Translations under genes and position numbers: made by a program
Notes under the pieces: model-generated
Databases searched by the model: none
The model's input: the letters and a program-made list of their open reading frames with translations, nothing else
Told to the model about the DNA's origin: nothing
Assembly: GCA_965203565.1 (NCBI GenBank)
Contig: OZ241896.1
Span: forward strand, 41,707 to 105,706
Reading direction: 5' to 3'
Length of the DNA: 64,000 nucleotides
From: Vicinamibacterales bacterium
GTDB taxonomy: Bacteria > Acidobacteriota > Vicinamibacteria > Vicinamibacterales > UBA8438
Shown: in pieces, positions 13,029-29,029 of the stretch
Position numbering within the stretch: position 1 is the stretch's first letter
Layout of the letters: each line of letters opens with the position of its first letter

Positions 13029-13075
13029 TTCTCGACGACCGGCTGGCCGCTTCTCCGCTCCTGCCGTGGCCGTCA

Positions 13076-14393
13076 ATGGGTCTGACGTTCGGCCAAGCAT
13101 TGTCGCGGGCCGCAGGAAGGCGACGGCTGCTTTCCGGTCACCGTGATCACAGCCGTGAACGCGACGGTACTGCCATCGTCTTTGGCGACGCAAATGCGCC
13201 GGACACGGCATTGCGCGTCACGTTCGACGGCTGGATCGCAGCTACCGGTCCGGCCGAAATGGTGGCTCGGTTGCCGGAACGCAGCAATTGCGTGCTCTCG
13301 GGCATCCTCGCCTCGTCGCTGGCGGTGTCGGAGATCTTCATGTCCTGCATGGGCGTCAGCGTGGCGGCGACCCGACGTCGGATTACACACTCTCTTTGGC
13401 GTCCCGGCGCGGACGTGCTTGATCCAGAAGCGCGGGGCGTGTCGATCGAGTTTCTGCCGAGAGCACTGTGGGTGTTGGGCCTGGGACACCTTGGCAACGC
13501 ATACCTGTGGGCGATCGCCGCCTTGCAACATCCCGATCCTGGCGAGGTCGAGGTGGTCCTGAACGACTTCGATCGGGTGGAGCCCGAAAACGTCGAAACC
13601 GGTCTGCTCTTCACGAACGTCGCACGCGGACAGTTCAAGACGCGGGTGTGCAGCGCATGGCTGGAAAAGCGAGGATTCCGGACGAGGATCGTCGAACGGC
13701 GGTTCGACGAGCATTTTCGCTGTCAAGCCGACGAGCCCCGGCTCGCGCTGTGCGGCTTCGACAACAACGCTGCACGAAGGCATCTGAAGGCGGCGGAGTT
13801 CGATCGCGTGCTCGAAAGCGGTCTCGGCGGGAAGGCCGATAATTTCGACACGCTTGCCGTTCACACCTTTCCGCAGTTCCGGCGCGTGGAGGAGTTATGG
13901 CGGGACGCTTCGCCAGAAGAAATTGCCGCCGACCATGAACACCGGATGCGCGCCGCGCAACAAAGCGCGGCCTATCAGCCCGTGGCGAAAGTCCCCGCTG
14001 CATTCGAGCGGCGATGCATCCCGCCTGACGGCGTTGTTCGTCGGTTGCGTATGCCCAATATGCGCCCTCCTCACGCCTTGTCAGCCGGGCGCCTCACCGC
14101 TCTCGGCGCGACGCGGGGATTCCACCACGGGCTGCTATGCCGGTATCGGGCACGACGAGTGCGGCAGATTCACGCTGGCAGGAAAGTCCATCGCCGTGCC
14201 GTTCGTCGGAACCGCGGCGGCGAGTTTCGTGCTTGCCGAAGCGATTCGACTTTTTCATCGGGGACCCGCGTGCAACGCCGTCAAGTTGCGGATGGCCACA
14301 CCGGCCCGTACACAGGTCGTGTCGGAACGGACGTATGTCGACAGTGATATCGAACGGCTCCTCTATTCACAGGCTCCAAAAGCGCGGTTCTGA
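13076..14393 (+). pseudogene. ThiF/E1-like adenylyltransferase gene interrupted by a MITE-like insertion
   Basis: The N-part (frame of 12656..) contains the Rossmann motif LWVLGLGHLGNAYLWAIAAL and LCGFDNNAARRHL. The C-part (frame of 13854..14393) reads YAGIGHDECGRFTLAGKSIAVPFVGTAAASFVLAEAIRL. Removing 13976-14134 plus one CTAT copy (163 nt) rejoins the frames into a 384-aa ORF. The true start is uncertain (ATG 13076 or GTG 12974). Confidence 0.75.
13976..14134 (+). mobile_element. MITE-like hairpin repeat, copy 1 (159 bp)
   Basis: Begins CAGCCCGTGGCGAAAGTCCCCGC and ends GCGGGGATTCCACCACGGGCTG. Flanked by direct CTAT (13972-13975 and 14135-14138). Confidence 0.85.
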
Positions 14394-14605
14394 TTGAAGT
14401 TAGAGCGCCAACGGTTGATCGCCGAGTGGACGGCTCGCGAGTAGCGTCTGATACGCAGGTCGTCGGTATCCATGTGTTCGCCGGCAACGTAGCGTTCAAG
14501 ACCTGCCTTGACGGGATCGACACGATCCTTGACTTGCCGCACCATGTCCCCGAACGCGACGCGCGTCCAGCCGGCCTTCACGCTTCCGGCCCGCAACCGT
14601 GTCAT
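14363..14605 (-). pseudogene. hsdS: type I R-M specificity subunit (hsdS) N-terminal fragment
   Basis: The 80-aa ORF starts immediately after the vapC stop (TGAATG). GWTRVAFGDMVRQVKDRVDPVKAGLERYVAGEHMDTDDLRIRRY resembles the first target-recognition-domain opening of HsdS. Similarity is lost after about 55 aa. Confidence 0.4.
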
Positions 14606-14983
14606 TCAGAACGCGATACGCTCGATGCGATCCACCCGGTCGAAGTGCGTGTCGTTGCTCAGAACCGGAAGATCGTATTGAAGGGCGAGCGCTGCTATCC
14701 AGGCGTCGTTGGTCGGAATTGGGTTGGCTGACCGTTTCAAATCCAGACGGATGTCAGCGTAGATCCCGGCAGCCGCGTGGGTGACGGCAGCGATCTCCAC
14801 ATCTGGGAGATGGTGGCGGAGCCAGTTTTCATAACGCCGACGGCGGCTGGATTGCCGGATGCCGAAGTAGTACTCGCCGAGGACGATGCAGGGAACGACG
14901 AGACGGTGAGCGGCTCGAAGAGCGGGTTCAACGGCCGGGAGTCCTTCGGCCCATGCCGACAAGGCGTTGGTGTCGAGGATCAT
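14606..14983 (-). CDS. vapC: PIN-domain toxin VapC
   Basis: MILDTNALSAW...LGEYYFG...NDAWIAALALQYDLPVLSNDTHFDRV carries the PIN acidic residues. The start overlaps the antitoxin stop by 4 nt (ATGA). Confidence 0.85.
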   Translation of the reverse strand: MILDTNALSAWAEGLPAVEPALRAAHRLVVPCIVLGEYYFGIRQSSRRRRYENWLRHHLPDVEIAAVTHAAAGIYADIRLDLKRSANPIPTNDAWIAALALQYDLPVLSNDTHFDRVDRIERIAF

Positions 14984-15249
14984 GCGACCTCGTCGGCGGG
15001 CAGCTTCTCGAACTCGTCCTCTATCAAGGCGGCGATGCGACGGTTCTCGTCCCGGAGATCGGCCAGCGCACCGAACCCGGCCATCCAGGGCGGCTCGGCG
15101 TCGCCACCGGATGTCGTGGGCGCGGAAGCGCGGCGCAGTTTTTCGTCGAGTGCTTCGGTGACGAACTGCTTCAGAGTCACGCCGCGGTCGGCGGCCACGG
15201 CCTTCGCCTGCCGGAGCGCGGCGGCGGGCAGATCGAGCGTGGTCTTCAT
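14980..15249 (-). CDS. vapB: VapB-type antitoxin
   Basis: 89-aa ORF MKTTLDLPAAALRQAKAVAADRGVTLKQFVTEAL..., a typical small antitoxin N-terminus, translationally coupled to vapC. Confidence 0.75.
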   Translation of the reverse strand: MKTTLDLPAAALRQAKAVAADRGVTLKQFVTEALDEKLRRASAPTTSGGDAEPPWMAGFGALADLRDENRRIAALIEDEFEKLPADEVA

Positions 15250-15419
15250 GCCGGCATGTTCCCACATCCACGGGGAGCCAGGCAATTTTCCAGGCGCAAC
15301 CGACGCGGCCACGCTTGCAACCCGACCTTCACGCCGAACCCGCGAGCCGGATCGTCTTCGGCGGGCGCGCGGCCACGCTTGCAACCGGGCCCTGTGCCGA
15401 GCCCAGCCCGCGCCGGCCG

Positions 15420-16411
15420 CTACCCATCGGCCTTCTGCTCCGCCACCACGCCGTCGAGCATCTCCACCACTTCGTCCATCCGCCGCCAGAAGTCCCGGCT
15501 GCCGGCGTCGAACTCGGCCCACGCGCTCCGCAGGTCGCCGGCCGGCCGCCGCACGTAGCGCGGGATCGACAGGTTCCCGTCGTTGGCGAGCACGTCGGCC
15601 GTCGTGGCCACCGCGGCGAAGCCCGGCTCGTCGGCGAACGCCCGGTACGCCTTCAGAATCCGCTGCTGGTGCGCCGCCGTGCAGGAAGCTCTGCGCGCGC
15701 TCGCGCGCCACTTCGCGCACCGCGTCGAGGAACAGCACCCGGCCGCGGCGCTTCGGCGGCTTGCGGGTGCGGCAGACGACGACGCACGCCTCCATCGGCG
15801 AGTTGTAGAACAGGTTCGGCCCGAGGCCGAGCACGCAGTCGACGAGGTCGCGCTCGATCAGGGCGCGGCGCATCGCGGCCTCCTCGTTGCGGAACAGGAC
15901 GCCGTGCGGGAAGAGGATGGCGCAGCGGCCGGTCCGCGCGGAACGCGTTCCGCAGCGCCCGGCCGACGTCGCGCGCCGCCCCGCGGACGTCGGACCAGTG
16001 GGCGCCGTCCGGGATGGCGAACCGGTCGTCGGCCGGCGCCCGCGCGTAGCCTTCGTCGCCGGTCTCGTCGAGGGCGGCGCGGCGCTCCTCGTCCCAGACG
16101 TCGGAGAGGCGCTTGAAGAAGAGCAGCGTGAAGGCGTATTGCTTGTAGTCGCCGGCGTCGACCAGCCCGCGCAGGAGGTTGGCGGCGCCCCAGAGGTACG
16201 ACTCCAGCGCCGGCCGGCCGAGGCGTTCGACGGGTGCGCTTACCAGCCCGTGGCGGAAGTCCCCGCTGCATTCGAGCGGCGATGCATCCCGCCTGACGGC
16301 GTTGTTCGTCGGTTGCGTATGCCCAATATGCGCCCTCCTCACGCCTTGTCAGCCGGGCGCCTCGCCGCTCTCGGTGCGACGCGGGGTTCCACCACGGGCT
16401 GTTACGGTCAC
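15420..16411 (-). pseudogene. hsdM: type I R-M methyltransferase hsdM, degraded (MITE insertion, internal deletion, frameshift)
   Basis: The HsdM_N-like part reads LESYLWGAANLLRGLVDAGDYKQYAFTLLFFKRLSD. It joins near 15930-15950 directly to GRCAILFPHGVLFRNEEAAMRRALIERDLVDCVLGLGPNLFYNSPMEACVVVCR...RGRVLFLDA. After a 1-nt frameshift near 15665 comes TAAHQQRILKAYRAFADEPGFAAVATTADVLANDGNLSIPRYV. Only about 276 codons remain, against roughly 500 expected. The GTG start overlaps the upstream vapC stop, and the MITE sits after codon 3. Confidence 0.75.
16244..16401 (+). mobile_element. MITE-like hairpin repeat, copy 2 (158 bp)
   Basis: Same termini as copy 1. Flanked by direct TTAC (16240-16243 and 16402-16405). 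Four differences from copy 1. Confidence 0.85.
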
Positions 16412-16836
16412 GCCAGCGGATTCTTCCACCGCAGGCCGGGGAACCGCGCCATGTCGGCATCGGTCGAGTGGAGCTCCGCCTGGTGCTCGATCGCCAGGGC
16501 CGCCAAGTGCGCGTCAGTGGTCAGGTTGCCCGCCACGCCGACTGCGTCGAGAAGGTCGAACAGGATGTCGGCGTGACGGTCGCCCGGGTGGATGAGGATG
16601 GCCTGCGGCCGGGCAATCCACGAGCGGACGCGGCTGCATGCGCCGCCGACGTCAAGGGGGTTCTGGAGGATCCTCCCATGCGTCGTGACACGAATGAAAC
16701 CGAGGATGGCGTTCCAGGGAAGGCCCACGCTGGTCGTCCCGCTCAACAGCGTTTCCCACCAAGCTCGCGCGGCGTCGTGTCGGCGCGACGTCGCATCGTG
16801 GGCGTAGACCAGCAGGTTGACGTCGGGAACGATCAT
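16408..16836 (-). CDS. vapC: PIN-domain toxin VapC
   Basis: MIVPDVNLLVYAHD...WNAILGFIRVTT...NLTTDAHLAALAIEHQAELHSTDADMARF. The start overlaps the antitoxin stop by 4 nt. Confidence 0.85.
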   Translation of the reverse strand: MIVPDVNLLVYAHDATSRRHDAARAWWETLLSGTTSVGLPWNAILGFIRVTTHGRILQNPLDVGGACSRVRSWIARPQAILIHPGDRHADILFDLLDAVGVAGNLTTDAHLAALAIEHQAELHSTDADMARFPGLRWKNPLA

Positions 16837-17180
16837 CGGCGCAGCTTCCCGGCGACCTCCTCGGCCTCCAGCTCGTCCGCGAGCTGGTTGAGCCGGTCGA
16901 CGTCGACGCCCGGCTTGAAGCCGAAAGCGTGCGGCTTCACCTTGAACCGCGCTTCGACCTCTTCCATGATGGCCGGAACCGTCTTCCCGCTCGGGCCGCT
17001 GCCGAGACCTTCCCGGACCGCGGCCCCGAGGGCTTCCATCCCCGCGCTCCGTTCCTGGTCGCGACGAATCAGGTCCCGGATGTACTCGCTGTCGTTGGTG
17101 AAACGGCCGGCGACGATCTGCGCCTTGATCCACCCATCCTGCAGATCGGTCAGTGTGATGGTCTTGCGGACGGTTCCCAT
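16833..17180 (-). CDS. ParD/CopG-like RHH antitoxin
   Basis: 115-aa ORF. TITLTDLQDGWIKAQIVAGRFTNDSEYIRDLIRRDQER matches the ParD-family ribbon-helix-helix N-terminus. It is coupled to the downstream PIN gene. Confidence 0.65.
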   Translation of the reverse strand: MGTVRKTITLTDLQDGWIKAQIVAGRFTNDSEYIRDLIRRDQERSAGMEALGAAVREGLGSGPSGKTVPAIMEEVEARFKVKPHAFGFKPGVDVDRLNQLADELEAEEVAGKLRR

Positions 17181-17470
17181 TTTGCGACCTCCAGAAATGC
17201 TCTCGCAGTCATACTATCGGTGCATGTTAGCACGATCCGTCGTTTCCAGCGCGCTCCGAGCCACTCGCGCCCGGCGGCGAGGAACAGCGTCTTGCCGCGG
17301 CGCTTCGCCGGCGAGCAACTGGGTCATATACTCGTTCCGGTGTCCGGTTCCCCCGCGATGATGCAGGATGACGGAATGCGTATGACGCTGAACCTCCCGC
17401 CGGAACTGCTCGACGAAGCGCATCGGTCCGACGCGCGCTGCGGCGTCGGGCGCGCTGCTCGCGCTCAGCA

Positions 17471-17742
17471 TTCTCGCTCATCGGCCGCATCGGGTTCGGC
17501 GCGCCTCGGCCGGCGCTCCCGCCCTCGCCCTGGCTGGATCGGGCGCCTTTGCCCTACCAGCCCGTGGCGAAAGTCCCCGCTGCATTCGAGCGGCGATGCA
17601 TCCCGCCTGACGGCGTTGTTCGTCGGTTGCGTATGCCCAATATGCGCCCTCCTCACGCCTTGTCAGGCGGGCGCCTCACCGCTCTCGGTGCGACGCGGGG
17701 ATTCCACCACGGGCTGCTACGCGCAGGTGGACGCCGCCGCCG
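17471..17742 (+). pseudogene. 3-prime remnant of a second autotransporter-like adhesin gene, carrying MITE copy 3
   Basis: 17471-17557 aligns to 23615-23701 (76 of 87 nt by manual alignment). It translates FSLIGRIGFGAPRPALPPSPWLDRAPLPY, against FSLIGRIGFGAPRTALPPAPWMNPPSLHY in the intact gene. 17717-17742 continues the match to 23698-23725. Confidence 0.7.
17558..17716 (+). mobile_element. MITE-like hairpin repeat, copy 3 (159 bp)
   Basis: Flanked by direct CTAC (17554-17557 and 17717-17720). Two differences from copy 1. Confidence 0.85.
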
Positions 17743-17896
17743 GCCTCCTCGCCACGCCTCCGGGCGCAGAAGGCGAATGCGGGTCACCTCGAAATCGGGA
17801 TCACTGCAAGTGATGAATCCATGCTATTGTGGACCGTTTGCCTCGTGCCGGTTTCTTCTTCTGTGGCCAACATGCTCATGAATTCCCTGCGGCCCC

Positions 17897-20800
17897 ATGC
17901 TGACTCCCCCCCCCCCCCCCCCGGATTTGATTCCCGCTGACGCTCGCCGGCGGCCTTTTCGCGCAACCCGACTCGCCGTCGGGCTGCTGATCGCCGCCGT
18001 CCCGTGGACGTTCGCCGCCGACGCGGACGCGCAGACGCTGCCGGTGCTGTCGATCGATTCGCCGAGCGTGGTCGAGGGCGACAGCGGTTCGACGAACCTG
18101 AACTTCACCGTGACTCTGAGCGCGTCCAGCACCAGCCAGGTGACGGTGGCCTACGCCGACGCCGGGACGGGGACGGCGACGAGCGGCACGGACTACACGG
18201 CGCTGACGGCGGGGATGCTGACGTTCGCGGCGGGGACGACGAGCCGGACGATCACGGTGTCGGTGACGGGCGACACGAGCCACGAGTCGCACGAGACCGT
18301 GGTGGTCACCCTGAGCAACCCGACGAACGCGACGGTGTCGGCGACGGCGGGCAGCGGGACGGGGACGATCCGGGACGACGAGGGGCTGACGCTGTCGGTC
18401 AATTCGCCGACCGTGGCCGAAGGGGACAGCGGCTCGACGAACCTGAACTTCACGGTGAGTCTGAGCGCGGCGAGCACGCAGAACGTCAACGTGATATTCG
18501 GGATCACGGGGGGCACGGCGACGGCGGGCACGGACTACACGACGTCCTTGACGAACAACCGGATACGGCTGCGCTTCAGGCCGGGCCAGACGAGCAAGAC
18601 GATCACGCTGGCGGTGCAGGGAGACACGCTCGACGAGCCGGACGAGACGGTGTTGGTGGCCTTGAGCGGGGCTTCCTTCAACGCGCGGATTACGACGGGC
18701 ACGGGGACCGGCACGATCACCGACGACGACCCTTTGCCGACCCTCTCGATCGATTCGCCGAGCGTGACCGAGGGCGACAGCGGCTCGACGGACATGATCT
18801 TCACGATAAGCCTGAGCGCGGCGAGCGGCAGGGAGGTGAGGATGGCGTACGGGATCTATCCGGGGGACGGTACGGCCACTGCTAACACGGACTTCACGGG
18901 GATAGACGGCTTTCGGTTCTTCACGTTCGCGCCGGGGGAGACGAGCAAGACGTTCACGGTGGAGGTGCTGGGGGACACGGACCCCGAGGCGGACGAGACG
19001 GTGGGAATCAGGCTTGCGGCCGGGCCGGCAAACGCAGTGCTCGGGGGAAACGGGAGGGGAGTCGGGACCATCACGGACGACGACATCGCGTTTCTGCGGA
19101 CCGGCCCGGCGAGCGTGGCGGAGGGGGACAGCGGCTCGACGAACCTGAACTTCACGGTGAGTCTGGCGGCGGCGAGCGGGAAGACGGTGACGGTGGACTA
19201 CGCCGACACCGGCAGGGGAACGGCGACGAGCGGTACGGACTACACGGCGTTGGCCGCGGGTACCTTGACCATTGCGCCGGGGGATACGAGCGGGACGATC
19301 ACGGTGGAGGTGACGGGGGACGAAGTTGTCGAGCGGCCCGAGACGGTGCTGCTGACCCTGAGCAATCCGACGAACGCGCGGTTCCTGATAGCAAGCATGG
19401 CCAGCTTGACGGGGACGATCCGGGACGACGACGGCTTCCCGGTGGCGAACGCGGGAGCGGACCAGACGGTGAGCGAGGGCGCCACGGTGACCCTGTCGGG
19501 GAGCGGTTCGGACCCTGACGGCACTCCGGTGAGCGGCTATCGGTGGACCCAGACGGCCGGCCCGGCGGTGACGCTGACGAGCGCGACGACGGCGACGACG
19601 AGCTTCACGGCGCCGACCGGTCTGGCGGCCGACGAGACGTTGCGGTTTTCGCTGGTGGTGACGGCGGGCTTCGAAGGCGGGTCGGACTCGGTGGACATCC
19701 TGGTGAACGCGGCCAACCCGAACTGGACGGCGGAAGCGGGGCCGAACCAGACGGTGGAGGAAGACGACGCGGTGACCCTGTCGGGGAGGACCCTGTCGGG
19801 GGGCGCCGATCTGACCCTGCAGGGCGTGATGCAGCCGGGCTATTCGTGGCGCCATACGAGCGGCGGCGGCTCGACGGTGCGTCTGACGGGGGCGGCGACG
19901 GCGTCGCCGCGCTTCACGGCGCCGAACCTGTTGGCGGACGCGACGTTGACGTTCACGCTGACGGTGACGGTGGGCAACGACACCATGACGGACACGGTGG
20001 ACGTCACGGTGCAGGCGGACAACGACGATCCGGCGGCGAACGCGGGTCCGGACCAGACGGTGTACGAGGGCGGCGCGGTGACGCTGCCGGGGAGAGGTTC
20101 GGATCCCGAGGGCGAGTCGCTGAGCTACTCGTGGAGCCAGACGGAGGGTCCGAACGTGACGCTGACGGGCGCGCTGTCGCCGACGGCGCGCTTCACGGCG
20201 CCGTTGGTGACGTCGGACGTGACGCTGACGTTCACGCTGACGGTGACGGCGGGCGGGGCCACCGCCACGGACACGGTGGCGGTGACGGTCGAACCCCTCG
20301 TGCTGATGGCGAACGCGGGCCCGGACCAGGTGGTGGACGAGGGCGACGCGGTGCGCCTGGACGGGACCGGTTCGACGGCGCCGCTCGGGGCCGGCCCGCT
20401 GATCTACTCGTGGAGCCAGACGGGCGGCAGCCCGAGCGTGACGCTGACGGGGGCGACGACGGCGACGCCGAGCTTCACGGCGCCGTCGGGTCTGACGGCG
20501 GACGTGACGCTGACGTTCACGCTGACGGTGACGGTGGGCGGAGAGGGGGCGGCCAGCGAAACGGACACGGTGGAGGTGACGGTCGAGTGGATTGGCCCGG
20601 TTGGCGCGCCCACGGTGCTGACGGCGGACGCGGGAGAGGACCGGACGGTGGACGGCGGCGACGCGGTGCGCCTGGACGGGAGCGGCTCGACGGCGCCGCC
20701 CGGCGAGGAGCTGCGCTGGTCGTGGCGCCAGACGGGGGGCGGCCCGAGCGTGACGCTGACGGGGGCGACGACGGCGACGCCGAGCTTCACGGCGCCGGAC

Positions 20801-23734
20801 GTGACGTCGAACGTGACGTTGACGTTCACGCTGACGGTGACGGCGGGCGGGGACAGCGTGACGGACACGGTGGACGTCACGGTGACGCCGCGGGCGCCGG
20901 GGACGCCGGTGAACCGGCCGCCGGCGATCACGCTCTCCGGCGACCGGACGTATCGGCAAGGGGAGCGGGTCTCGCCGTTCATCGTCGCGGCGAGCGACCC
21001 GGACGGCGACGCGGTGGAGGTGGAGGTGGTCGGTCTGCCGCCGGGCCTGCGGCACGGGGGCGGGCTGGTGGAAGGGACGGTGGCGGCCGACGCGGCGGCG
21101 CAGGTCCACCGGGTGACGGTGACGGCTTCCGACGGCGTGGCGGCTCCGGTGCGGGCGACGTTCACGGTGACGGTGACGGCGCCGGATCGGGAGCCGGACC
21201 GGCCGCCGACGGGGGAGGCGCCTCCGGACCTGCGGCCGTCGTTCGCGGGGGTTCCGCCGGTTTCGCGGCAGTACCGGGTGGGCCGTCCGGCGGCCGGTTC
21301 GGCGCTGCCGGCGGCCGCAGGGGGCGACCGGCCGCTGCGGTACGAGCTGACGCCGGCGCCGCCGGCGGGCCTGCGGTTCGACGGCGGGAGCCGGACGTTG
21401 ACGGGGACGCCGACGGCCGAGCAGCGGCCGGCGCCCTGGACGCTGACGGCGACCGACGCGGACGGCGACACGGCGACGCTGGAGGTGACGATGGCGGTGC
21501 TCGACCCGCCGGTGGTGACCGGCCTGCGGCTGGTGTCGCAGCCGGCGGCGGGGGACACGTACGGGTACGGGGAAGCGGTCGCGGCGGAGGTGGCGTTCAG
21601 CGAGCCGGTCGAGGTGGCGGGGGCGCCGACGCTGGGACTGACGGTCGGCTCGGCGGTGCGGACGATGCGTCTGACGGGCGCCGAGGGTCCGCGGCTGCGG
21701 TTCGGGTACCGGGTGTCGGAGACCGACCTGGACGAGGACGGCGTGAGCGTGTCGGCGGACGCGCTGGCGCTGGGCGGCGGCCGGATCACGGACGCGCTGG
21801 GGACGGCGGCCGAGTTGGGGCATGCGGGTCTGGCGGGCCAGGCGGGACACCGGGTGGACGGGCGGCCTCGGGCGGTGGGGACGCTGCGCACGGTGACGGT
21901 GGTGCTGGGCGGCGCGGCGGCGCGGGTCGAGCTGTCGGGCGCGTTCCGGGGAGCGGAGACGTATGCGGCGGCGGTGGCGGACGGGTCGCTGGCGGCGGTG
22001 GAGGTGGACGGTTCGTCGGCGGTGGTGACCGGGTTGGCGGAGGGGACGACGACGGTGACGGTGACGGGCCGGAACGCGGGAGGTTCGGCGGAGCAGCGGT
22101 TCGGGGTGGTGGTGACGGCGTCGGCGGCGGAGCGCGAAGTGATGGTGTCGACGCTGGCGGGGGTGGGACGGAGCCTCCTGGCCGGCGCGTCCGCGACGGT
22201 GGGACGCCGTCTGGACGGGAGCGGCGGCGGCGGGGCGCCCGAGGCGCAGGCGTCGCTGGCGGGCCGGACGCTGCCGCTGGCGGGCGGCCCGGCGTCGGCG
22301 GCGGGGCGGACGGCGTGGCTGCGTCCGGAGGCGGGGACGTGGTCGCCGGCGGCGGCGTCTGCGGCGCCGGCGCTGGACCGGCCGCGGGCGGCGGCGCGGC
22401 GGGCGGCGGTGCGGGCGGGACTGACCACGGCGCAGGGCGGGCGGCTGACGGGCGAGGAGCTGCTGTTCGGCAGCGCGTTCACCTTCTCCGGCGGCGGGAC
22501 CGGCCAGGCGGCGGCCGAGGCCGGGCCGGGCGCGGGCGGCGGGCTGCGGTGGACGGCGTGGGGAGCGGGCGACCGGCAGTCGTTCCAGGGAACGGCCGGC
22601 TCGGGTGCGACCTACGACGGGCGGCCGGCGACGGCGGCGGCGGGGGTGGACGTCGAGCGGGGCCGCCTGCTGGCGGGGGTGGCGGTGGCGCGGAGCGTGG
22701 CCGATGCAAACTATGCGTTCCGCGACGCGGCGGAGGGCGTGAGCGGGCAGGGCGCGGTGGCGACGCGGCTGGTGACGGCGCAGCCGTATGCGCGGTGGGC
22801 GCTGGACGAGCGGACGTCGGTGTGGGGCGTGTTCGGCGCCGGCTGGGGCCGGGCGGAGGTGGCGCGGTCGGTGACGGCGGCGGCCGAATCGGCCGACCTG
22901 GCGGTGCTGATGGGACTCGGCGGCGTGCGGCGGGAACTCGGGCCGGCCGGCGGGCTGGAACTGGCGCTGCGGGGCGACGTGGGCGGGGCGTGGCTGGAGA
23001 CCGGCGGCGGCGGCGGCGGCCTGCTGGCGGGGCGGCGGGTGGCGGTGCACCAGTCGCGGCTGGGCCTGGAGATCGGACGGACGTTCGGAACGGGGCTGAC
23101 GGTGCGGCCGTTCGCGGCGGTGAGCGGACGGTACGACGGCGGGGCGGGGGCGACGGGGACGGGGCTGGAGGTGGCGGGCGGATTGCGGGCGTCGGACGGG
23201 GCGGGACGCGTCGAGGTGGAGGCGTCGGGGCGGGTGCTGGCGCTGCACACGGAGTCGGGATACCGGGAGCGGGGAGTGAGCGTGCGGGCGCGGCTGACGC
23301 CGGGAGGCGACCCCGGACGGGGGCTGTCGGTCGAGGTGACGCCGCGGTGGGGGGCGCCGCAGATCGGCGCGGAGACGCTGTGGCGGGACCAGGCGCTCGG
23401 CGCGGCGGCGGGCGGCGGCCGGCCGGAGACCGGCGCGCTCGATGCGCGGGTGGGATACGGACTCGGACTGCTGGCGCCGTTCGCGGAGATGGGATGGGCG
23501 GAGGACGCGCAGCGGCAGCGGCTCGGCCTGCGGGTGGGGCAGTTCGGCGACGCCGTCGACGTCGAGGTGACCGGCGAACGGTACGCCTTGCTCGGACGCC
23601 CGACCGACCACCGCTTCTCGCTCATCGGCCGCATCGGGTTCGGAGCGCCTCGGACGGCGCTCCCCCCCGCGCCCTGGATGAATCCGCCGTCCTTGCACTA
23701 CGCGCAGGCGGACGACGCCGCCGAGACGCCGTAG
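17897..23734 (+). CDS. giant surface adhesin: signal peptide, 4 Calx-beta, 5 PKD-like, Ig-like repeats, autotransporter-like beta-barrel
   Basis: 1945-aa ORF.
- The signal-like N-terminus is RRRPFRATRLAVGLLIAAVPWTFAADA.
- Four ~115-aa repeats match Calx-beta: SV.EGDSGSTNLNFTV.LSAAS...TATSGTDYT...F..G.TS.TITV.V.GD...E..ETV.
- Five ~95-aa repeats are PKD-like: ANAGPDQTV.EG..V.L.G.GS...Y.W.QT.G..VTLTGATTATPSFTAP....TLTFTLTVT.
- Two putative Ig (PPGL...GT) domains and a Big_2-like domain follow.
- The C-terminal ~500 aa are Gly/Ala/Arg-rich with alternating-pattern strands ending FSLIGRIGF. Confidence 0.85.
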   Translation: MLTPPPPPPDLIPADARRRPFRATRLAVGLLIAAVPWTFAADADAQTLPVLSIDSPSVVEGDSGSTNLNFTVTLSASSTSQVTVAYADAGTGTATSGTDYTALTAGMLTFAAGTTSRTITVSVTGDTSHESHETVVVTLSNPTNATVSATAGSGTGTIRDDEGLTLSVNSPTVAEGDSGSTNLNFTVSLSAASTQNVNVIFGITGGTATAGTDYTTSLTNNRIRLRFRPGQTSKTITLAVQGDTLDEPDETVLVALSGASFNARITTGTGTGTITDDDPLPTLSIDSPSVTEGDSGSTDMIFTISLSAASGREVRMAYGIYPGDGTATANTDFTGIDGFRFFTFAPGETSKTFTVEVLGDTDPEADETVGIRLAAGPANAVLGGNGRGVGTITDDDIAFLRTGPASVAEGDSGSTNLNFTVSLAAASGKTVTVDYADTGRGTATSGTDYTALAAGTLTIAPGDTSGTITVEVTGDEVVERPETVLLTLSNPTNARFLIASMASLTGTIRDDDGFPVANAGADQTVSEGATVTLSGSGSDPDGTPVSGYRWTQTAGPAVTLTSATTATTSFTAPTGLAADETLRFSLVVTAGFEGGSDSVDILVNAANPNWTAEAGPNQTVEEDDAVTLSGRTLSGGADLTLQGVMQPGYSWRHTSGGGSTVRLTGAATASPRFTAPNLLADATLTFTLTVTVGNDTMTDTVDVTVQADNDDPAANAGPDQTVYEGGAVTLPGRGSDPEGESLSYSWSQTEGPNVTLTGALSPTARFTAPLVTSDVTLTFTLTVTAGGATATDTVAVTVEPLVLMANAGPDQVVDEGDAVRLDGTGSTAPLGAGPLIYSWSQTGGSPSVTLTGATTATPSFTAPSGLTADVTLTFTLTVTVGGEGAASETDTVEVTVEWIGPVGAPTVLTADAGEDRTVDGGDAVRLDGSGSTAPPGEELRWSWRQTGGGPSVTLTGATTATPSFTAPDVTSNVTLTFTLTVTAGGDSVTDTVDVTVTPRAPGTPVNRPPAITLSGDRTYRQGERVSPFIVAASDPDGDAVEVEVVGLPPGLRHGGGLVEGTVAADAAAQVHRVTVTASDGVAAPVRATFTVTVTAPDREPDRPPTGEAPPDLRPSFAGVPPVSRQYRVGRPAAGSALPAAAGGDRPLRYELTPAPPAGLRFDGGSRTLTGTPTAEQRPAPWTLTATDADGDTATLEVTMAVLDPPVVTGLRLVSQPAAGDTYGYGEAVAAEVAFSEPVEVAGAPTLGLTVGSAVRTMRLTGAEGPRLRFGYRVSETDLDEDGVSVSADALALGGGRITDALGTAAELGHAGLAGQAGHRVDGRPRAVGTLRTVTVVLGGAAARVELSGAFRGAETYAAAVADGSLAAVEVDGSSAVVTGLAEGTTTVTVTGRNAGGSAEQRFGVVVTASAAEREVMVSTLAGVGRSLLAGASATVGRRLDGSGGGGAPEAQASLAGRTLPLAGGPASAAGRTAWLRPEAGTWSPAAASAAPALDRPRAAARRAAVRAGLTTAQGGRLTGEELLFGSAFTFSGGGTGQAAAEAGPGAGGGLRWTAWGAGDRQSFQGTAGSGATYDGRPATAAAGVDVERGRLLAGVAVARSVADANYAFRDAAEGVSGQGAVATRLVTAQPYARWALDERTSVWGVFGAGWGRAEVARSVTAAAESADLAVLMGLGGVRRELGPAGGLELALRGDVGGAWLETGGGGGGLLAGRRVAVHQSRLGLEIGRTFGTGLTVRPFAAVSGRYDGGAGATGTGLEVAGGLRASDGAGRVEVEASGRVLALHTESGYRERGVSVRARLTPGGDPGRGLSVEVTPRWGAPQIGAETLWRDQALGAAAGGGRPETGALDARVGYGLGLLAPFAEMGWAEDAQRQRLGLRVGQFGDAVDVEVTGERYALLGRPTDHRFSLIGRIGFGAPRTALPPAPWMNPPSLHYAQADDAAETP
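17906..17922 (+). repeat. C17 homopolymeric tract at codons 4-9 of the adhesin ORF
   Basis: Counted directly: 5+10+2 consecutive C. It encodes PPPPPP in the frame of ATG 17897. Confidence 0.95.
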
Positions 23735-23740
23735 CGCGTC

Positions 23741-24436
23741 ATGAGCCAGCCGTTTTCACCGCCTCCTTACCCGCGCCACTGTAAGGGGGACGCCATGGAC
23801 TTCGACGTCGAAGGTCACCTCGCCGCCATGGAGCGGTCCGTTTCGACCCTGGAACGCAATGGACGGCCCGCGTACGCGGTCTCTCTCGCCCGCGGCCATG
23901 CGACGACGCTGGACAACCTCTGGGGCGCGGCGACCGACCGCGCGCGCATCCCGCGCTGGTTCCTGCCGATCAGCGGCGATCTCGAGCCGGGCGGCCGCTT
24001 CCAGTTGGAGGGCAACGCGGGGGGCGTGATCACGGCGTGCGAACGGCTGTCGCACTTCGCGCTCACCTGGGAGTTCGGCGGCGACACGAGCTGGGTGGAG
24101 GTGCGGTTCTCGGAAGACCCGGCCGGGGGCGCGCGGGTCGCGCTGACCCACGTTGCGCACCGTTCGATGCACTGGGACGAGTACGGGCCGGGCGCGCTCG
24201 GCGTCGGCTGGGAGCAGGCGCTGCTCGGACTCGCAATGCACGTCGATCGGCCGGACGGGCCGAAGCCGGACGAAGCGGCCTTCGCGGCCTCCCGGAACGG
24301 CCGGGCGTTCATCGCCGGCAGCGGCGCAGGGTGGGAGCGGGCGGCGGTGGCGGCCGGAACCGACCCCGCCGCCGCGCGCGCCGCGGCGCGGCGCACGGTC
24401 GCGTTCTACACCGGCGAGCCGGTCGGCGCCGAATGA
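23741..24436 (+). CDS. SRPBCC/AHSA1-like domain protein
   Basis: 231-aa ORF; the ATG at 23795 (MDFDVEGH) is an alternative start. LWGAATDRARIPRWFLPISGDLEPGGRFQLEGNAGGVITACE...FALTWEFGG resembles the START/AHSA1 (SRPBCC) fold family. Confidence 0.6.
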   Translation: MSQPFSPPPYPRHCKGDAMDFDVEGHLAAMERSVSTLERNGRPAYAVSLARGHATTLDNLWGAATDRARIPRWFLPISGDLEPGGRFQLEGNAGGVITACERLSHFALTWEFGGDTSWVEVRFSEDPAGGARVALTHVAHRSMHWDEYGPGALGVGWEQALLGLAMHVDRPDGPKPDEAAFAASRNGRAFIAGSGAGWERAAVAAGTDPAAARAAARRTVAFYTGEPVGAE

Positions 24437-24578
24437 CCCGTTGCGCGTCATGAAACACCGAATCGCGGCGGCGGATCTGCGCGCAGCTCCGGAGGTCGGA
24501 CTTCAGGTCCAGCAGGCGATCGGGCATCGGCCGGCGCCGGTGATGCTCCCGCGTGCGGCCGTCTCGGTTCCCTCGGGA

Positions 24579-26252
24579 CTACGACTCCGGCCAGTCGAAG
24601 ATGCGGTCGAACAGGTCGAGCTTCGCCTTGCGGACCCCCTCGACCACCCGGACCTCGGCGCCGAACTCTATCGACCGGTCGGTGGCGCGCTCGTAGCGCG
24701 GCCATGCGGGCAACCCTTCGCCGTTCGGGTCGCCGGTCCGCGCGAAGTTGGTCCAGTACCGGGTGATGACGCGCGCCAGCTCGTGGTCCCAGTCGGTCCA
24801 GTCGAGCCCGACGAGGCCGGTGTTCCCGAAGACGTACGCCAGCTCGCCCGAGTGGTAGGCGCCGTAGGACCGCCGGCCGCCCTCCACCCGGAGGTCCGGC
24901 TGGTCGTGGACGTAGAGCCGGAAAACCGGCGGCGCGTGGCTGAAGAAATACAGGTAGGCGTCGTTGCCCGCCGCTTCGACGGCGCGCGCCCAGGCGCGCA
25001 TCTCCCAGACGAACCGGCGGTCGGTCCGGATCTGCCGGGCGGCGGTCGTCGGCGAGTCGTCGAGCTCGCCGGCGTACGCCGCCAGCAGCGCGTCGGCCGC
25101 CGAGCCGTACTCGCTCCGCACCGACGCCTCCAGCTCGTCCCGCGTCGGCGCGCCGCCTGCGAGGTCGGCGTTGATCTCGTCCGCCGTCGCGCCGACCACG
25201 ACCGGGACGTCGTTGTGCTCCCCGGCGGCGAAGATGGCGCGCGGCGGCCTGGGAACCACCCACCCGTCGATGACGGCGCCCGACCCGAGCGTCTCGTCCA
25301 GCACCGTTTCGGGCGCCAGCGCCCGCAGCGCCGCCGCGGCCTCCGGGCCTTCGCCCTCCACGCCCAGCGCGGACGCCGCGGCCAGGCCGGCGGCGTGCGC
25401 CGACCGCTCCGCGTCCGGCTCGTCCGGCGCGTCGGCCAGGTGCGGGCGCTCGCCCTCGAAGCAGCCGCCCGACTGGCCGATCGCCTTGTGGAACAGCCCC
25501 TTGGCCAGCGGCGACGCCATGAGGTAGCAGACGGTCCACGACCCGGCCGACTGCCCGAAGATCGTCACGTTCCCCGGGTCGCCGCCGAACGCCGCGGCGT
25601 TGTCGCGCACCCATTCGAGCGCGGCGATCTGATCGAGCAGGCCGTAGTTGCCGGACGACGCCCGCGGCGACTCGGCCGTCAGCGCGGGGTGGGCCAGGAA
25701 GCCGAACGGCCCGAGCCGGTAGTTGAGCGTCACGAGCACGACGCCGCGCCGCGCCAGCGCCGCGCCGTCGAAGATGCGCGGGCTGCCGACGCCGGCGTTG
25801 TGGCCGCCGCCGTGGTACCAGACCATCACCGGCAGGGCCGCCCCGGCGTCGGCGGCGGGCGTCCAGACGTTGAGGTGCAGGCAGTCCTCGCTCCGGTCCA
25901 GGCCGCCCCGCGCGTAGAGCGACGACATGTCGTTCGGGCGCTGCCAGCAGGCGGGGGCGAACGCCTGCGCCGGGCGGACGCCGTCCCACGGCTCGACCGG
26001 CGCCGGGGGACGCCAGCGGGCGTCGCCGACCGGCGGTTGCGCGTACGGGACGCCGCGGAAGACGAGCAGGCTGCGCGCGTCATCGGCGTACTCCCCTTCG
26101 AGCGCGCCGGCCGACGTCTCCACCGTCGTTCCGAGCGGAACGGCGCTGCCGGCGCTGCCGGCCGAGCCGGCCGCCGCGTCGCCGCCGCCGGACGGCCCGC
26201 AGGCGGCGAGCGCCAGAAGCGGGGCGAGCGCCAGAAGCTTTGACCATTGCAT
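24579..26252 (-). CDS. type-B carboxylesterase/lipase lipoprotein
   Basis: FRGVPYAQPPVGDARWRPP, EDCLHLNVW, and the nucleophile elbow IFGQSAGS. The start at 26250-26252 gives lipobox LLALAAC (the ORF opens at 26282). Confidence 0.85.
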   Translation of the reverse strand: MQWSKLLALAPLLALAACGPSGGGDAAAGSAGSAGSAVPLGTTVETSAGALEGEYADDARSLLVFRGVPYAQPPVGDARWRPPAPVEPWDGVRPAQAFAPACWQRPNDMSSLYARGGLDRSEDCLHLNVWTPAADAGAALPVMVWYHGGGHNAGVGSPRIFDGAALARRGVVLVTLNYRLGPFGFLAHPALTAESPRASSGNYGLLDQIAALEWVRDNAAAFGGDPGNVTIFGQSAGSWTVCYLMASPLAKGLFHKAIGQSGGCFEGERPHLADAPDEPDAERSAHAAGLAAASALGVEGEGPEAAAALRALAPETVLDETLGSGAVIDGWVVPRPPRAIFAAGEHNDVPVVVGATADEINADLAGGAPTRDELEASVRSEYGSAADALLAAYAGELDDSPTTAARQIRTDRRFVWEMRAWARAVEAAGNDAYLYFFSHAPPVFRLYVHDQPDLRVEGGRRSYGAYHSGELAYVFGNTGLVGLDWTDWDHELARVITRYWTNFARTGDPNGEGLPAWPRYERATDRSIEFGAEVRVVEGVRKAKLDLFDRIFDWPES

Positions 26253-26334
26253 TGCAGTCCCTCCAGTCGTCGGCGCCATCATAACCGCGTTGCACTACAA
26301 TCGGCGTCGCACCGCACGGGAAAGGAGCGGACGG

Positions 26335-27801: not shown

Positions 27802-27814
27802 TCCTGATATTCCT

Positions 27815-27842
27815 TTGTCCCCGGCGGCCGAAGTACTATAAT
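27815..27842 (+). promoter_or_regulatory. putative sigma70-like promoter of the paralog cluster
   Basis: TTGTCC (27815-27820), a 16-nt spacer, then TATAAT (27837-27842). It sits in an unusually AT-rich 90-nt intergenic stretch, about 50 nt upstream of ATG 27894. Confidence 0.4.
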
Positions 27843-27893
27843 TCGGATGATCCTGTCGAATCTTTCCGGAAGGGTTGGCGAAGGAGTACGCGG

Positions 27894-28964: not shown

Positions 28965-29029
28965 CGCGGACCCGGCCGGACCCACCGGGCAGGGAGAGCA
29001 GGAAGCAGCAGGAAGAAGGAGCCGGAGAG

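What the first reader, a model, noticed from the sequence alone, without database searches (positions are those of the whole stretch)
17897..17940. C17 homopolymer at codons 4-9 of a 1945-aa adhesin gene: likely slipped-strand phase-variation switch
Positions 17906-17922 are 17 consecutive C residues. They start 9 nt after the only in-frame ATG (17897) that precedes the signal peptide.
- At C17 the reading frame is open for 1945 codons.
- With one C fewer, the frame reads CGG ATT TGA and stops at 17928-17930.
- With one C more, it reads GGA TTT GAT TCC CGC TGA and stops at 17938-17940.

So a change of one C in either direction switches the gene OFF within 2-6 codons. This is the classic layout of contingency loci for surface proteins.

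A run this long stands out even in a GC-rich genome. If TTG 17927 is the real start, the tract would instead sit in the 5-prime leader. It could then still modulate expression.
Basis: partly seen in the sequence, partly recalled or inferred. Interest (0 to 1): 0.75.

Follow-up and report, generated by a model that had tools for sequence, protein, structure and literature searches.

The report
Hypervariable poly-C switch on adhesin gene
A run of 17 C's at the very start of a giant surface-protein gene of an uncultured acidobacterium recurs, at very different lengths, on every related gene copy examined, so it is most likely a slippage-prone switch of the kind pathogens use to vary their surface, here in an environmental lineage.

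Summary
C17 lies at 17906-17922 and is the only homopolymer longer than 7 nt in 64 kb. It occupies codons 4-9 of the ORF 17897-23734, and the stops predicted for one C more or fewer are right.

The tract is real and selected. All 11 homologous gene copies whose DNA I could read, from Vicinamibacterales-type assemblies, carry one long homopolymer no more than 230 nt upstream of the start. Ten are C12-C24; one is G16. These account for 11 of the 12 runs of 9 nt or more in 209 kb. Copies with 96-98% identical flanks have C15, C17 and C24.

The window's genome encodes three paralogs, each called in a different 5' register (MLTPPPPPPDLIPADA, MLMNPLRPHADPPPPPDLIPADA, MIPADA).

The slipped-strand contingency reading is therefore supported, but the ON/OFF logic needs correcting:
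- One C fewer brings the upstream ATGs 17821/17872/17878 into frame. This is an alternative ON state, and it is annotated that way in two copies.
- One C more puts the ORF in a frame closed by TGA 17901. Only the TTG at 17927, which has no Shine-Dalgarno sequence, remains.
- More distant homologs start at ATGs downstream of the tract, and one cannot be fused to it at all. A 5'-leader role is a live rival.

Tract lengths come from long-read MAG consensus and may be off by 1. This is a new member of a known kind; interest is moderate.

The parts
17906..17922 (+). Poly-C tract (C17), the hypervariable element
   Evidence: the only homopolymer longer than 7 nt in the window. Homologous tracts are C15, C24, C21, C23, C19, C23, C20, C12 and C18 in L001, L002, L003, L078, L004, L073, L076, L075 and L077. 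It is predicted to be unpaired in RNA, with pairing probability 0.05 against 0.55 overall.
17897..17899 (+). Proximal ATG (register A). It is in frame with the long ORF at C17 (C 3n+2).
   Evidence: The motif CCATGCTG(AC) just 5' of the tract is kept in the window, L001, L002, L003, L078, L004 and L076, and as CCATGCCGA in L073. No Shine-Dalgarno motif lies upstream in the window.
17901..17903 (+). TGA that closes the third upstream frame (register C, reached at C18/C15/C21...)
   Evidence: frame 1 of the window reads 'AAPC*LPPPPP'. The same stop closes the ORF's own frame in L002 (C24) and L003 (C21).
17821..17880 (+). Distal ATGs at 17821, 17872 and 17878 (register B). They come into frame with the ORF at C16 or C19.
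   Evidence: frame 2 of the window reads 'MLLWTVCLVPVSSSVANMLMNSLRPHADSPPPPP'. L001/P0004 is called from the first of these ATGs. The window genome's paralog P0121 is called from the second.
17927..17929 (+). TTG, the only canonical start codon between the tract and the hydrophobic core of the signal peptide
   Evidence: Homologs carry ATG at or next to this position: L003/L078 have CAG ATG CCC, and L004 has TTG ATG ATG ATG. Paralog P0122 is called from it as 'MIPADA'. It is lost (TTA) in L002. No SD lies upstream, and it overlaps TGA 17928-17930.
17897..23734 (+). Gene for a 1945-aa surface protein: signal peptide, 4 Calx-beta repeats, 5 K319L-type PKD domains, He_PIG domains and a C-terminal outer-membrane beta-barrel
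   Evidence: Identical to P0001 in a public genome.
17933..18031 (+). Signal-peptide coding region (PADARRRPFRATRLAVGLLIAAVPWTFAADADA, then Q). The cleavage site was judged by eye only.
   Evidence: Synonymous CGG/CGA/CGC and CCC/CCG changes between the window, L003 and L004 show that this stretch is translated in this frame from at least CCC GCT (17933) onward.
22547..23635 (+). C-terminal beta-barrel domain (outer-membrane anchor or translocator)
   Evidence: No Pfam or PDB sequence hit. The AlphaFold2 model on a 15-sequence alignment has pLDDT 71.7, pTM 0.67 and about 18-19 strands. Foldseek hits outer-membrane barrels including the EspP, Hbp and BrkA beta-domains, with target-normalised TM-score 0.5-0.59. 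Homologs end in F, W or Y.
17800..17830 (+). Candidate promoter-proximal elements: palindrome ATCACTGCAAGTGAT (17800-17814) and a -10-like TGcTATTGT (17822-17830). This is weak inference only.
   Evidence: These align with TACAAT, TATCAT and TATAGT elements upstream of the homologs. The sigma-70 scan found no full promoter on the + strand.
17471..17557 (+). Remnant of the 3' end of a gene of the same family. It continues at 17717-17742 after the MITE and marks the duplicated 5' cassette.
   Evidence: 96 of 113 nt are identical to 23615-23723.

Best explanation
The C17 run is a slippage-prone poly-C tract that a family of giant surface-protein genes in Vicinamibacterales-type Acidobacteriota keeps at its extreme 5' end. 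These proteins have Calx-beta and PKD domains and are anchored in the outer membrane.

The tract lies between a set of upstream AUGs and the signal-peptide coding sequence. A gain or loss of C's during replication changes which AUG is in phase with the ORF:
- **Register A** (C 3n+2, the state in this window): the proximal ATG 17897 is in frame and gives MLT-P6-DLIPADARRR...
- **Register B** (C 3n+1): the distal ATGs 17821, 17872 and 17878 are in frame and give a longer N-terminal extension.
- **Register C** (C 3n): the in-phase upstream frame is closed by TGA 17901. Only the SD-less TTG 17927 can start the protein, so expression is expected to be low or off.

Each paralog switches independently, so a clonal population displays different combinations of these proteins.

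**Shown:** the tract; the three-register frame logic; its conservation on all copies; its length differences between near-identical copies; and paralogs of one genome occupying all three registers.

**Inferred:** that slipped-strand mispairing generates the differences at high rate; which start codons ribosomes actually use; and that expression differs between registers.
For: 1. **The tract is exceptional.** It is the only run longer than 7 nt in 64 kb.
2. **The association with the gene family is tight.** In 208.6 kb from 11 family loci there are 12 homopolymers of 9 nt or more, and 11 of them are the single tract upstream of each family gene. In 261 kb around 80 unrelated Calx-beta genes from other metagenomes there is only one C9.
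3. **Length changes far faster than the flanks.** The window, L001 and L002 share upstream sequence that is nearly identical by eye in the alignment, and gene starts that are 96-98% identical. Their tracts are C17, C15 and C24. Two 96%-identical paralogs in one 5.06-Mb genome have C21 and C23.
4. **All three registers are seen.** The window genome's three paralogs (95.5-97.3% identical) are called as MLTPPPPPPDLIPADA, MLMNPLRPHADPPPPPDLIPADA and MIPADA.
5. **The upstream start and stop are conserved.** An ATG just 5' of the tract is conserved in all 8 loci of this type, and the frame-C TGA in most of them, even where the surrounding sequence has diverged.
6. **One copy depends on the upstream ATGs.** L002 has lost the downstream TTG (now TTA) and sits in the closed register, yet its ORF of more than 1,800 codons is otherwise intact. 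This fits a reversible OFF state that relies on the upstream ATGs.
7. **Translation must start at or before the tract region.** Synonymous substitutions show translation from at least 17933, so the start is TTG 17927 or an ATG upstream of the tract.
8. **The product is a surface protein.** It has Calx-beta and PKD domains plus a predicted outer-membrane beta-barrel, the class of gene usually placed under such switches.
Against: - **Many homologs start downstream of the tract.**
  - The start lies 7-9 nt downstream in L003, L078 and L004.
  - The start lies 23-41 nt downstream in L075, L073 and L076.
  - L004 has three consecutive ATGs right after the tract, which suggests initiation there.
- **One homolog cannot use frame fusion.** L077 has an in-frame stop immediately before its SD-preceded ATG, 230 nt after the tract. 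Frame fusion therefore cannot be the family-wide mechanism.
- **The proximal ATG has no obvious ribosome-binding site.** No Shine-Dalgarno motif precedes ATG 17897. About 40% of neighbouring genes have one.
- **The tracts are longer than needed.** At 15-24 nt they far exceed what hypermutability requires, which hints that a long C run as such may be selected.
- **Six to eight N-terminal prolines should slow translation.**
- **No population-level data were available.** Lengths are long-read consensus values and may be off by 1, which is enough to change the register assigned to any single locus.
- **The transcription start is unknown.** No sigma-70-type promoter was found on the + strand.
Confidence: 0.5

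Rival explanations
1. Leader-tract model. Translation starts downstream of the tract, at TTG 17927 here and at ATG in the homologs. The poly-C run is part of the 5' untranslated leader. It is still hypermutable, but its length tunes the amount of transcript or the efficiency of initiation rather than the reading frame. This would resemble the poly-G tract in the Moraxella uspA1 leader or the poly-C tract in the Neisseria opc promoter.
For: - ATG codons lie at or after the TTG position in L003, L078 and L004. The ATGs lie 23-41 nt downstream in L075, L073 and L076.
- L077 cannot be fused to its tract at all.
- All nine ≥90%-identical members of the L077-type cluster that have an N-terminus start at MMLQGSLR, so they start downstream.
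- -10-like elements (TACAAT, TATAGT, TATCAT, TATTGT) lie 65-400 nt upstream of the tracts, so the tract is probably transcribed.
- In L074 a G16 run fills the 17-nt spacer between TTGAAT and TACAAT, a textbook promoter-spacer arrangement.
- Distance to the start codon is not conserved (4-230 nt), whereas presence in the leader is.
Against: - In the window, the tract ends 4 nt before a weak TTG with no SD. It is not obvious how initiation would occur there.
- L002 has no start codon downstream of the tract yet keeps an intact ORF.
- The conserved ATG just 5' of the tract, and the TGA in the third frame, are unexplained by a pure leader model.
- No mechanism linking C-tract length to initiation could be tested.
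Confidence: 0.3
2. Regulated leader model; this is not a mutational switch. A short upstream ORF starting at the conserved ATG translates the C run as poly-proline. The C-rich, G-poor, unstructured leader is a loading site for the Rho termination factor. Ribosome stalling on the proline run depends on EF-P and proline-tRNA supply. Stalling or termination there decides whether Rho aborts transcription of the 5.8-kb gene, or whether ribosomes re-initiate at the overlapping start. Length variation would then be a tolerated by-product.
For: - The tract is single-stranded in predicted folds (pairing probability 0.04-0.29 in 8 of 9 loci).
- The 80-nt leader ending at the tract has C 46% and G 19%. 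This is the 99.9th percentile of C-over-G excess in the window.
- Every locus has an ATG-initiated frame that enters the tract.
- In out-of-frame states, the upstream ORF stops on or next to the main start. Examples are TTGA in the window/L001 arrangement, ATGA in L076, and CGC TGA 8 nt after the ATG in L003 and L004.
- Tracts of 15-24 nt are longer than mutability alone requires.
Against: - The evidence is entirely circumstantial. No Rfam leader family matches, and nothing about Rho or EF-P dependence can be tested here.
- The C excess is largely the tract itself.
- The large length differences between near-identical copies, and the three registers among paralogs, are what a mutational switch predicts. 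A tuned regulatory element would more likely resist them.
Confidence: 0.1
3. Artefact or neutral relic. The run is a homopolymer assembly error, or a functionless slippage-prone remnant carried along with a duplicated 5' cassette.
For: - All sequences come from metagenome assemblies, apparently long-read, where homopolymer length is the commonest error.
- The paralogs share a duplicated cassette made of a 3'-end remnant, the intergenic region and the 5' end. The tract could therefore be inherited rather than independently selected.
Against: - The tract is found at the same place in 11 loci from at least 5 different assemblies, including copies with only about 60-70% N-terminal protein identity and unrelated flanks.
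- An unselected 15-24-nt homopolymer would be interrupted by substitutions, yet all are pure.
- Differences of 2-7 nt exceed typical consensus error.
Confidence: 0.05

Closest known systems
Haemophilus influenzae lic1 translational switch (CAAT repeats just after alternative start codons). Cited from my own knowledge: Weiser et al. 1989.
   Same: A repeat tract at the extreme 5' end of the ORF moves alternative upstream ATGs, which lie in two different frames, in or out of phase with the rest of the gene. This gives three states (strong, weak, none). The window shows the same three-register logic.
   Different: A tetranucleotide repeat rather than a homopolymer. An LPS-modification gene rather than a surface protein. 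A gammaproteobacterial pathogen. Switching there has been shown experimentally; here it has not.
Neisseria pilC (poly-G in the signal-peptide coding region) and the opa family (CTCTT repeats in the signal-peptide region, many paralogs). Cited from my own knowledge.
   Same: A G/C homopolymer or repeat at the 5' end, in or before the signal peptide of an adhesin. Frameshift ON/OFF switching. For opa, several paralogs per genome each sit in their own register, as with P0001, P0121 and P0122 here.
   Different: Neisseria tracts are shorter (roughly 9-17 nt) and lie clearly inside the ORF. Here the tract precedes the conserved signal peptide, and several homologs have start codons after it.
Neisseria meningitidis opc promoter poly-C tract (review PMC3960869), Bordetella fim promoter poly-C, and Moraxella catarrhalis uspA1 leader poly-G (the last two from my own knowledge)
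   Same: A variable-length poly-C or poly-G tract upstream of the coding region of an outer-membrane adhesin sets the expression level. This matches the leader-tract rival, and the L074 arrangement TTGAAT-T-G16-TACAAT.
   Different: In the window and in most homologs, no -35/-10 pair flanks the tract. The tract abuts the start codon instead.
Classical (type Va) autotransporter adhesins
   Same: The layout is an N-terminal signal peptide, then a long repetitive passenger, then a C-terminal outer-membrane beta-barrel. Homologs end in an aromatic residue. The fold resembles the EspP, Hbp and BrkA beta-domains.
   Different: There is no match to the Pfam autotransporter beta-domain or to any PDB sequence. 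The predicted barrel has about 18-19 strands rather than 12. The passenger is made of Calx-beta and PKD domains rather than a beta-helix. The window protein has 30 residues after the terminal Phe.

Membership tests
Simple-sequence-repeat contingency (phase-variable) locus | A repeat tract well above the length at which slippage becomes frequent, and exceptional for the genome | tested here: met
   C17 is the only run longer than 7 nt in 64 kb. Of 12 runs of 9 nt or more in 209 kb of related loci, 11 are these 5' tracts.
Simple-sequence-repeat contingency (phase-variable) locus | The tract is placed so that a change of one repeat unit alters expression (within the 5' ORF or the promoter/leader) | tested here: inconclusive
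   In silico, the three registers give the proximal ATG in frame, the distal ATGs in frame, or a closed frame. The start codon actually used and the transcription start are unknown, and homologs start downstream of the tract.
Simple-sequence-repeat contingency (phase-variable) locus | Tract length is polymorphic between closely related strains or paralogs while the flanks are conserved | tested here: met
   C15, C17 and C24 occur with 96-98% identical flanks. C21 and C23 occur in 96%-identical paralogs. Three registers occur among the three paralogs of the window genome. Caveat: these are consensus lengths from assemblies.
Simple-sequence-repeat contingency (phase-variable) locus | Length heterogeneity within a population, and reversible switching of expression | not testable with these tools
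   No reads, cultures or expression data were available.
Classical type Va autotransporter (Pfam PF03797 beta-domain) | C-terminal 12-stranded beta-barrel recognised by the autotransporter beta-domain profile | tested here: not met
   hmmscan of the last 430 aa at E up to 10 found no families. phmmer against PDB found no hit. The AF2 model is a larger barrel of about 18-19 strands. Its structural similarity to outer-membrane barrels is only generic.
Classical type Va autotransporter (Pfam PF03797 beta-domain) | N-terminal Sec signal peptide and a C-terminal aromatic beta-signal residue | tested here: inconclusive
   A signal-peptide-like n/h/c region (RRRPFRATR-LAVGLLIAAVPWTFAA-DADA) was seen by eye. 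Homologs end in F, W or Y, but the window protein continues for 30 residues after ...IGRIGF.
Promoter-spacer phase variation (opc / porA / fim type) | The tract lies between the -35 and -10 hexamers, or between an activator site and -10 | tested here: not met
   No sigma-70-like promoter on the + strand spans the tract. The sequence 3' of the tract (GGATTTGAT) is not -10-like. Only the distant homolog L074 shows this arrangement.

The most novel reading that the evidence does not exclude
The long, pure, single-stranded C run may not be primarily a mutational switch. It could be a conserved regulatory leader: a poly-proline upstream ORF laid over a poly-C loading site for Rho. In that case ribosome stalling on the prolines (dependent on EF-P and proline supply), together with termination and re-initiation at the overlapping TTGA or ATGA start, would decide whether the 5.8-kb adhesin gene is transcribed and translated. 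The register changes would then add a second, stochastic layer. That would be a new kind of leader combining attenuation with hypermutation.
Probability: 0.1. Interest if true: 0.8.

Novelty: new member of a known kind. Interest (0 to 1): 0.55.

Why it matters
Repeat-driven phase variation of surface proteins is known almost entirely from host-adapted pathogens and commensals such as Neisseria, Haemophilus, Bordetella, Campylobacter and Helicobacter. My searches of the held literature found no report of it in Acidobacteriota.

Here a whole family of giant Calx-beta/PKD outer-membrane proteins in uncultured Vicinamibacterales-type genomes carries the hallmark. Several paralogs per genome sit in different registers. 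This implies that these organisms also hedge their surface display. The likely pressures are phage, grazers or a host, but the habitat was not established here.

For annotation, gene callers give these genes three different N-termini, or truncate them, depending on a tract length that long-read assemblies may get wrong.

The locus can be tested directly by counting tract lengths in the existing raw reads.

Tried and rejected
- **Scan for the same locus in JGI metagenomes.** I used an exact DNA pattern (C9, a gap, then CCSGCTGACGCTCGCCG) and got 0 hits.
- **Protein-guided scan of the same collection.** It returned only distant Calx-beta repeats (45-58% identity, no N-termini). I used these as a negative control only.
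- **Pattern scan of species-representative genomes.** CATGCTG-N(0-14)-C13 found only one family member (OZ241843.1, a Vicinamibacterales MAG, the same contig as L003) among 68 mostly unrelated hits. The window's own genome is not among the representatives.
- **DNA of the window genome's other two paralogs.** P0001 and P0122 are not on record in the contig index. Their registers are therefore known only from the called proteins.
- **Sigma-70 promoter and terminator scan of 17300-18100.** Nothing was found on the + strand. A sigma-54 reading of TGGCCAACATGCTC was rejected by eye because the GG-GC spacing is 7 rather than 10.
- **Promoter-spacer model for the window** (CTGACT as -35, C17 as spacer). 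Rejected because the downstream hexamer GGATTT matches TATAAT at only 1 of 6 positions.
- **Rfam search of the leader.** Only two chance miRNA-model hits, both on the MITE.
- **Pfam and PDB sequence searches of the C-terminal domain.** Nothing was found. Structure prediction was needed instead.
- **A divergent small ORF on the minus strand at 17790-17880.** Considered and dropped; it is 30 codons long with no support.
- **Whether most loci are in one register.** The counts are too small to tell: about 4 of 6 in the closed or +1 state, against 1 in 3 expected by chance.
Full report
**1. The observation**

Positions 17906-17922 are 17 consecutive C's, preceded by ATG CTG ACT (ATG at 17897) and followed by GGATTTGATTCCCGCTGAC.

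- In the 64-kb window (70.2% G+C) no other homopolymer exceeds 7 nt.
- The ORF 17897-23734 (1945 codons) is the longest in the region. It is already called from this ATG in a public genome with a 3.95-Mb contig (P0001).
- An in-frame TGA at 17879-17881 makes 17897 the only in-frame ATG before the signal peptide.

**2. The gene**

Pfam finds 4 Calx-beta repeats, 5 K319L-type PKD domains and He_PIG domains.

The last ~400 residues match nothing in Pfam or in PDB sequences. They are nevertheless conserved in dozens of homologs, most of which end in F, W or Y.

An AlphaFold2 model built on a 15-sequence alignment is a beta-barrel of about 18-19 strands (pLDDT 71.7, pTM 0.67). Its best structural matches are outer-membrane barrels, including the EspP, Hbp and BrkA autotransporter beta-domains (target-normalised TM-score 0.5-0.59).

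The protein is laid out like an autotransporter adhesin: signal peptide, repetitive passenger, C-terminal outer-membrane barrel. It is not a member of the classical family.

'Adhesin' is an inference from domain content.

**3. The organism**

The closest homologs come from ENA metagenome assemblies whose contig names suggest long-read assemblers.

One of these contigs (5,060,204 bp) is GenBank OZ241843.1, 'MAG: Vicinamibacterales bacterium'. The window is therefore from an uncultured Acidobacteriota lineage of that type.

I did not establish the habitat.

**4. The tract on every copy**

I read the 5' regions of ten further homologous genes.

| Locus | Tract | Sequence context or distance to start |
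|---|---|---|
| L001 | C15 | CCCCATGCTGA-C15-GGATTTGATT |
| L002 | C24 | ...GACT-C24-GGATTTAACG |
| L003 | C21 | ...GACTTCGCTGACT-C21-GACGCAGATG |
| L078 | C23 | ...GACTTCG-C23-GACGCAGATG |
| L004 | C19 | GCCATGCTG-C19-GGATTGATGATGATG |
| L073 | C23 | 41 nt before the ATG |
| L076 | C20 | 39 nt before the ATG |
| L075 | C12 | 23 nt before the ATG |
| L077 | C18 | 230 nt before the ATG |
| L074 | G16 | 227 nt upstream, between TTGAAT and TACAAT |

- In the 208.6 kb held for these 11 loci there are 12 homopolymers of 9 nt or more, and 11 of them are these tracts.
- As a control, 261 kb around 80 Calx-beta genes from other metagenomes contain a single C9. Short-read assemblies may under-represent long runs.

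The tract is not an artefact. A pure 12-24-nt homopolymer kept at one place across genes that share only about 60-70% N-terminal identity must be maintained by selection.

**5. The length is hypervariable**

- The window, L001 and L002 share nearly identical upstream sequence and gene starts that are 96-98% identical. Their tracts are C17, C15 (with the preceding T lost) and C24.
- In the 5.06-Mb genome two paralogs that are 96% identical have C21 and C23.
- Differences of 2-7 nt are larger than usual consensus error. A ±1 error at any one locus cannot be excluded.

**6. The frame logic is three-state, not ON/OFF/OFF**

Translation of the three frames shows the following.

- The proximal ATG 17897 is in phase at C17.
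- Three distal ATGs (17821, 17872, 17878) lie in the frame that comes into phase at C16 or C19.
- The third frame is closed by TGA 17901-17903, which is part of the conserved CCATGCTGAC motif. At C18 only TTG 17927 could start the protein.

L001/P0004 is annotated in the distal-ATG state (MLLWTVCL...PHADPPPPPDLIPADA).

L002 is in the closed state. It has also lost the TTG (now TTA), so the gene caller truncated it to start after the signal peptide. The rest of its ORF is intact.

The window's own genome encodes three paralogs, 95.5-97.3% identical, called in all three states:
- P0001: MLTPPPPPPDLIPADA
- P0121: MLMNPLRPHADPPPPPDLIPADA
- P0122: MIPADA

This is the pattern expected of a family of independently switching contingency genes. 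The logic matches the H. influenzae lic1 switch (my own knowledge).

**7. Where does translation start?**

Synonymous differences (CGG/CGA/CGC, CCC/CCG) between the window, L003 and L004 show that the PADARRR codons are translated. The start is therefore TTG 17927 or an ATG 5' of the tract.

*For an upstream start:*
- The ATG just 5' of the tract is conserved in all eight loci of this type.
- L002 has no other option.

*For a downstream start:*
- L003 and L078 have ATG, and L004 has three ATGs, at the TTG position.
- L073, L076 and L075 have ATGs 23-41 nt downstream.
- L077 has an in-frame stop just before its ATG, which is preceded by GAGGA. L077 cannot be fused to the tract.
- The nine cluster members of that type that have an N-terminus all start at MMLQGSLR.

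No SD precedes ATG 17897 or TTG 17927. SD-like motifs precede 22 of 52 neighbouring genes. Several genes look leaderless, with a -10-like TAnnnT followed by 6-7 nt and then ATG.

In L075 and L077 such a leaderless-type ATG (TGGTATAGT/TGGTATGCT, then 6 nt, then ATGATT) opens a frame that runs through the tract. In L075 this frame is in phase with the main ORF. In L077 it is a separate upstream ORF.

In all ten loci with a poly-C tract, an ATG-initiated frame enters the tract. Whether that frame is the gene's real 5' end or a regulatory upstream ORF differs from locus to locus, or is unknown.

**8. Other properties**

- The tract is predicted to be unpaired in the leader RNA (pairing probability 0.04-0.29 in 8 of 9 loci).
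- The 80 nt ending at the tract are C-rich and G-poor, at the 99.9th percentile of the window.
- No Rfam family matches.
- No sigma-70-type promoter was found on the + strand. -10-like hexamers lie 65-400 nt upstream of the tracts in all loci. The one exception is L074, where the G16 run fills a 17-nt spacer between -35-like and -10-like hexamers.

**9. Verdict**

I rate at about 0.8 that this is a selected, hypermutable tract that varies expression of the adhesin family.

Within that, my estimates for the mechanism are:
- Three-register start-codon switch, for the window copy: 0.5.
- Leader-level mechanism with translation from TTG 17927: 0.3.
- Regulated poly-proline/Rho leader: 0.1.
- Neutral relic or artefact: 0.05.

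The switch idea stands, but two points need correcting. A −1 slip does not turn the gene off, and the family as a whole does not require the tract to be coding.

This is a new member of a known kind. The kind has apparently not been described in Acidobacteriota. The tracts are unusually long, and the arrangement is multi-paralog.

The decisive data are tract-length distributions in the raw reads, which should already exist.

Noticed in passing
window 13976-14134, 16244-16401, 17558-17716, about 37642 (- strand), about 54059: A miniature transposable element (MITE) of about 159 bp. It has 10-bp terminal inverted repeats (CAGCCCGTGG ... CCACGGGCTG) and a YTAY flank on each side. Five copies occur in the window, and the first three are more than 96% identical to each other. 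Those three are absent from the matching sites of the closely related contig (L002), so insertion was recent. One copy sits 190 bp upstream of the poly-C gene.
   Followed up: partly
window 12947-17557 and 22221-29217, compared with L002 and L001: The window's upstream flank matches the upstream flank of one paralog in a related genome (L002, 97-99%). Its downstream flank matches the downstream flank of the other paralog (L001, 97.7%), which is inverted and lies about 200 kb away on the same contig. This is what a ~200-kb chromosomal inversion by recombination between the two adhesin paralogs would produce.
   Followed up: partly
window 17471-17557 plus 17717-17742, compared with 23615-23723: A 113-bp remnant of the 3' end of a gene of the same family (85% identical) lies just upstream of the gene's own promoter region. 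L001 and L002 have the same remnant. The paralogs therefore share a duplicated cassette consisting of a 3' end, the intergenic region and a 5' end.
   Followed up: yes
window 23639-23731: The protein continues for 30 residues (GAPRTALPPAPWMNPPSLHYAQADDAAETP) after ...IGRIGF. Most homologs end at that point with a terminal aromatic residue, the usual outer-membrane insertion signal. The model has very low confidence for this tail.
   Followed up: partly
L004, L076, L073 and the window, at the tract: Upstream and downstream sequence types are shuffled at the tract. Two upstream types exist (ACATGCNCATGAG... or GTCAGGAGTYCCCTTGAGCC) and two downstream types (PADARRR or MTRPLRAT N-terminus). All four combinations occur, which suggests recombination breakpoints at or near the poly-C run.
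   Followed up: no
L074 2747-2779 and 2900-3010: A more distant homolog has G16 filling the 17-nt spacer between TTGAAT and TACAAT, a promoter-spacer style of tract. It also has a 1-nt frameshift inside its signal-peptide region, so its called protein starts at MFAVNAAAQ.
   Followed up: no
L073 6273-6283: A G11 run lies inside the coding region of the homolog P0005. It is the only long homopolymer in the family loci that is not in a 5' region, and it could be a second frameshift-prone site.
   Followed up: no
L003 5620-5920 and L078 2740-2960: Two to three tandem copies of a ~122-bp unit lie upstream of the tract in both paralogs of the 5.06-Mb genome. The unit contains a -10-like TACATATACAAT.
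   Followed up: no
L002 11553, L003 1379 and 14545, L004 343, L075 about 2890, L077 about 1185: Many genes in these genomes have a -10-like TAnnnT hexamer 6-7 nt before the start codon and no Shine-Dalgarno motif. This suggests frequent leaderless mRNAs in this lineage.
   Followed up: no
L007, L055, L052 (OZ243932.1, Gammaproteobacteria MAG): An unrelated MAG has three loci with CATGCTG followed by C35, C27 or C19, and then an ATG 18-22 nt downstream. This may be another family with long poly-C tracts before gene starts. The CATGCTG part was imposed by my search pattern.
   Followed up: no
window 17800-17814: A perfect palindrome, ATCACTgcaAGTGAT, lies just upstream of the -10-like TGcTATTGT. 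It is conserved in L001 and L002 and could be an operator site.
   Followed up: no
window 18000-24000: The gene has a strong G-over-C skew (+0.16 to +0.23), and its 3' half reaches 76-78% G+C. The leader just upstream is C-rich.
   Followed up: no
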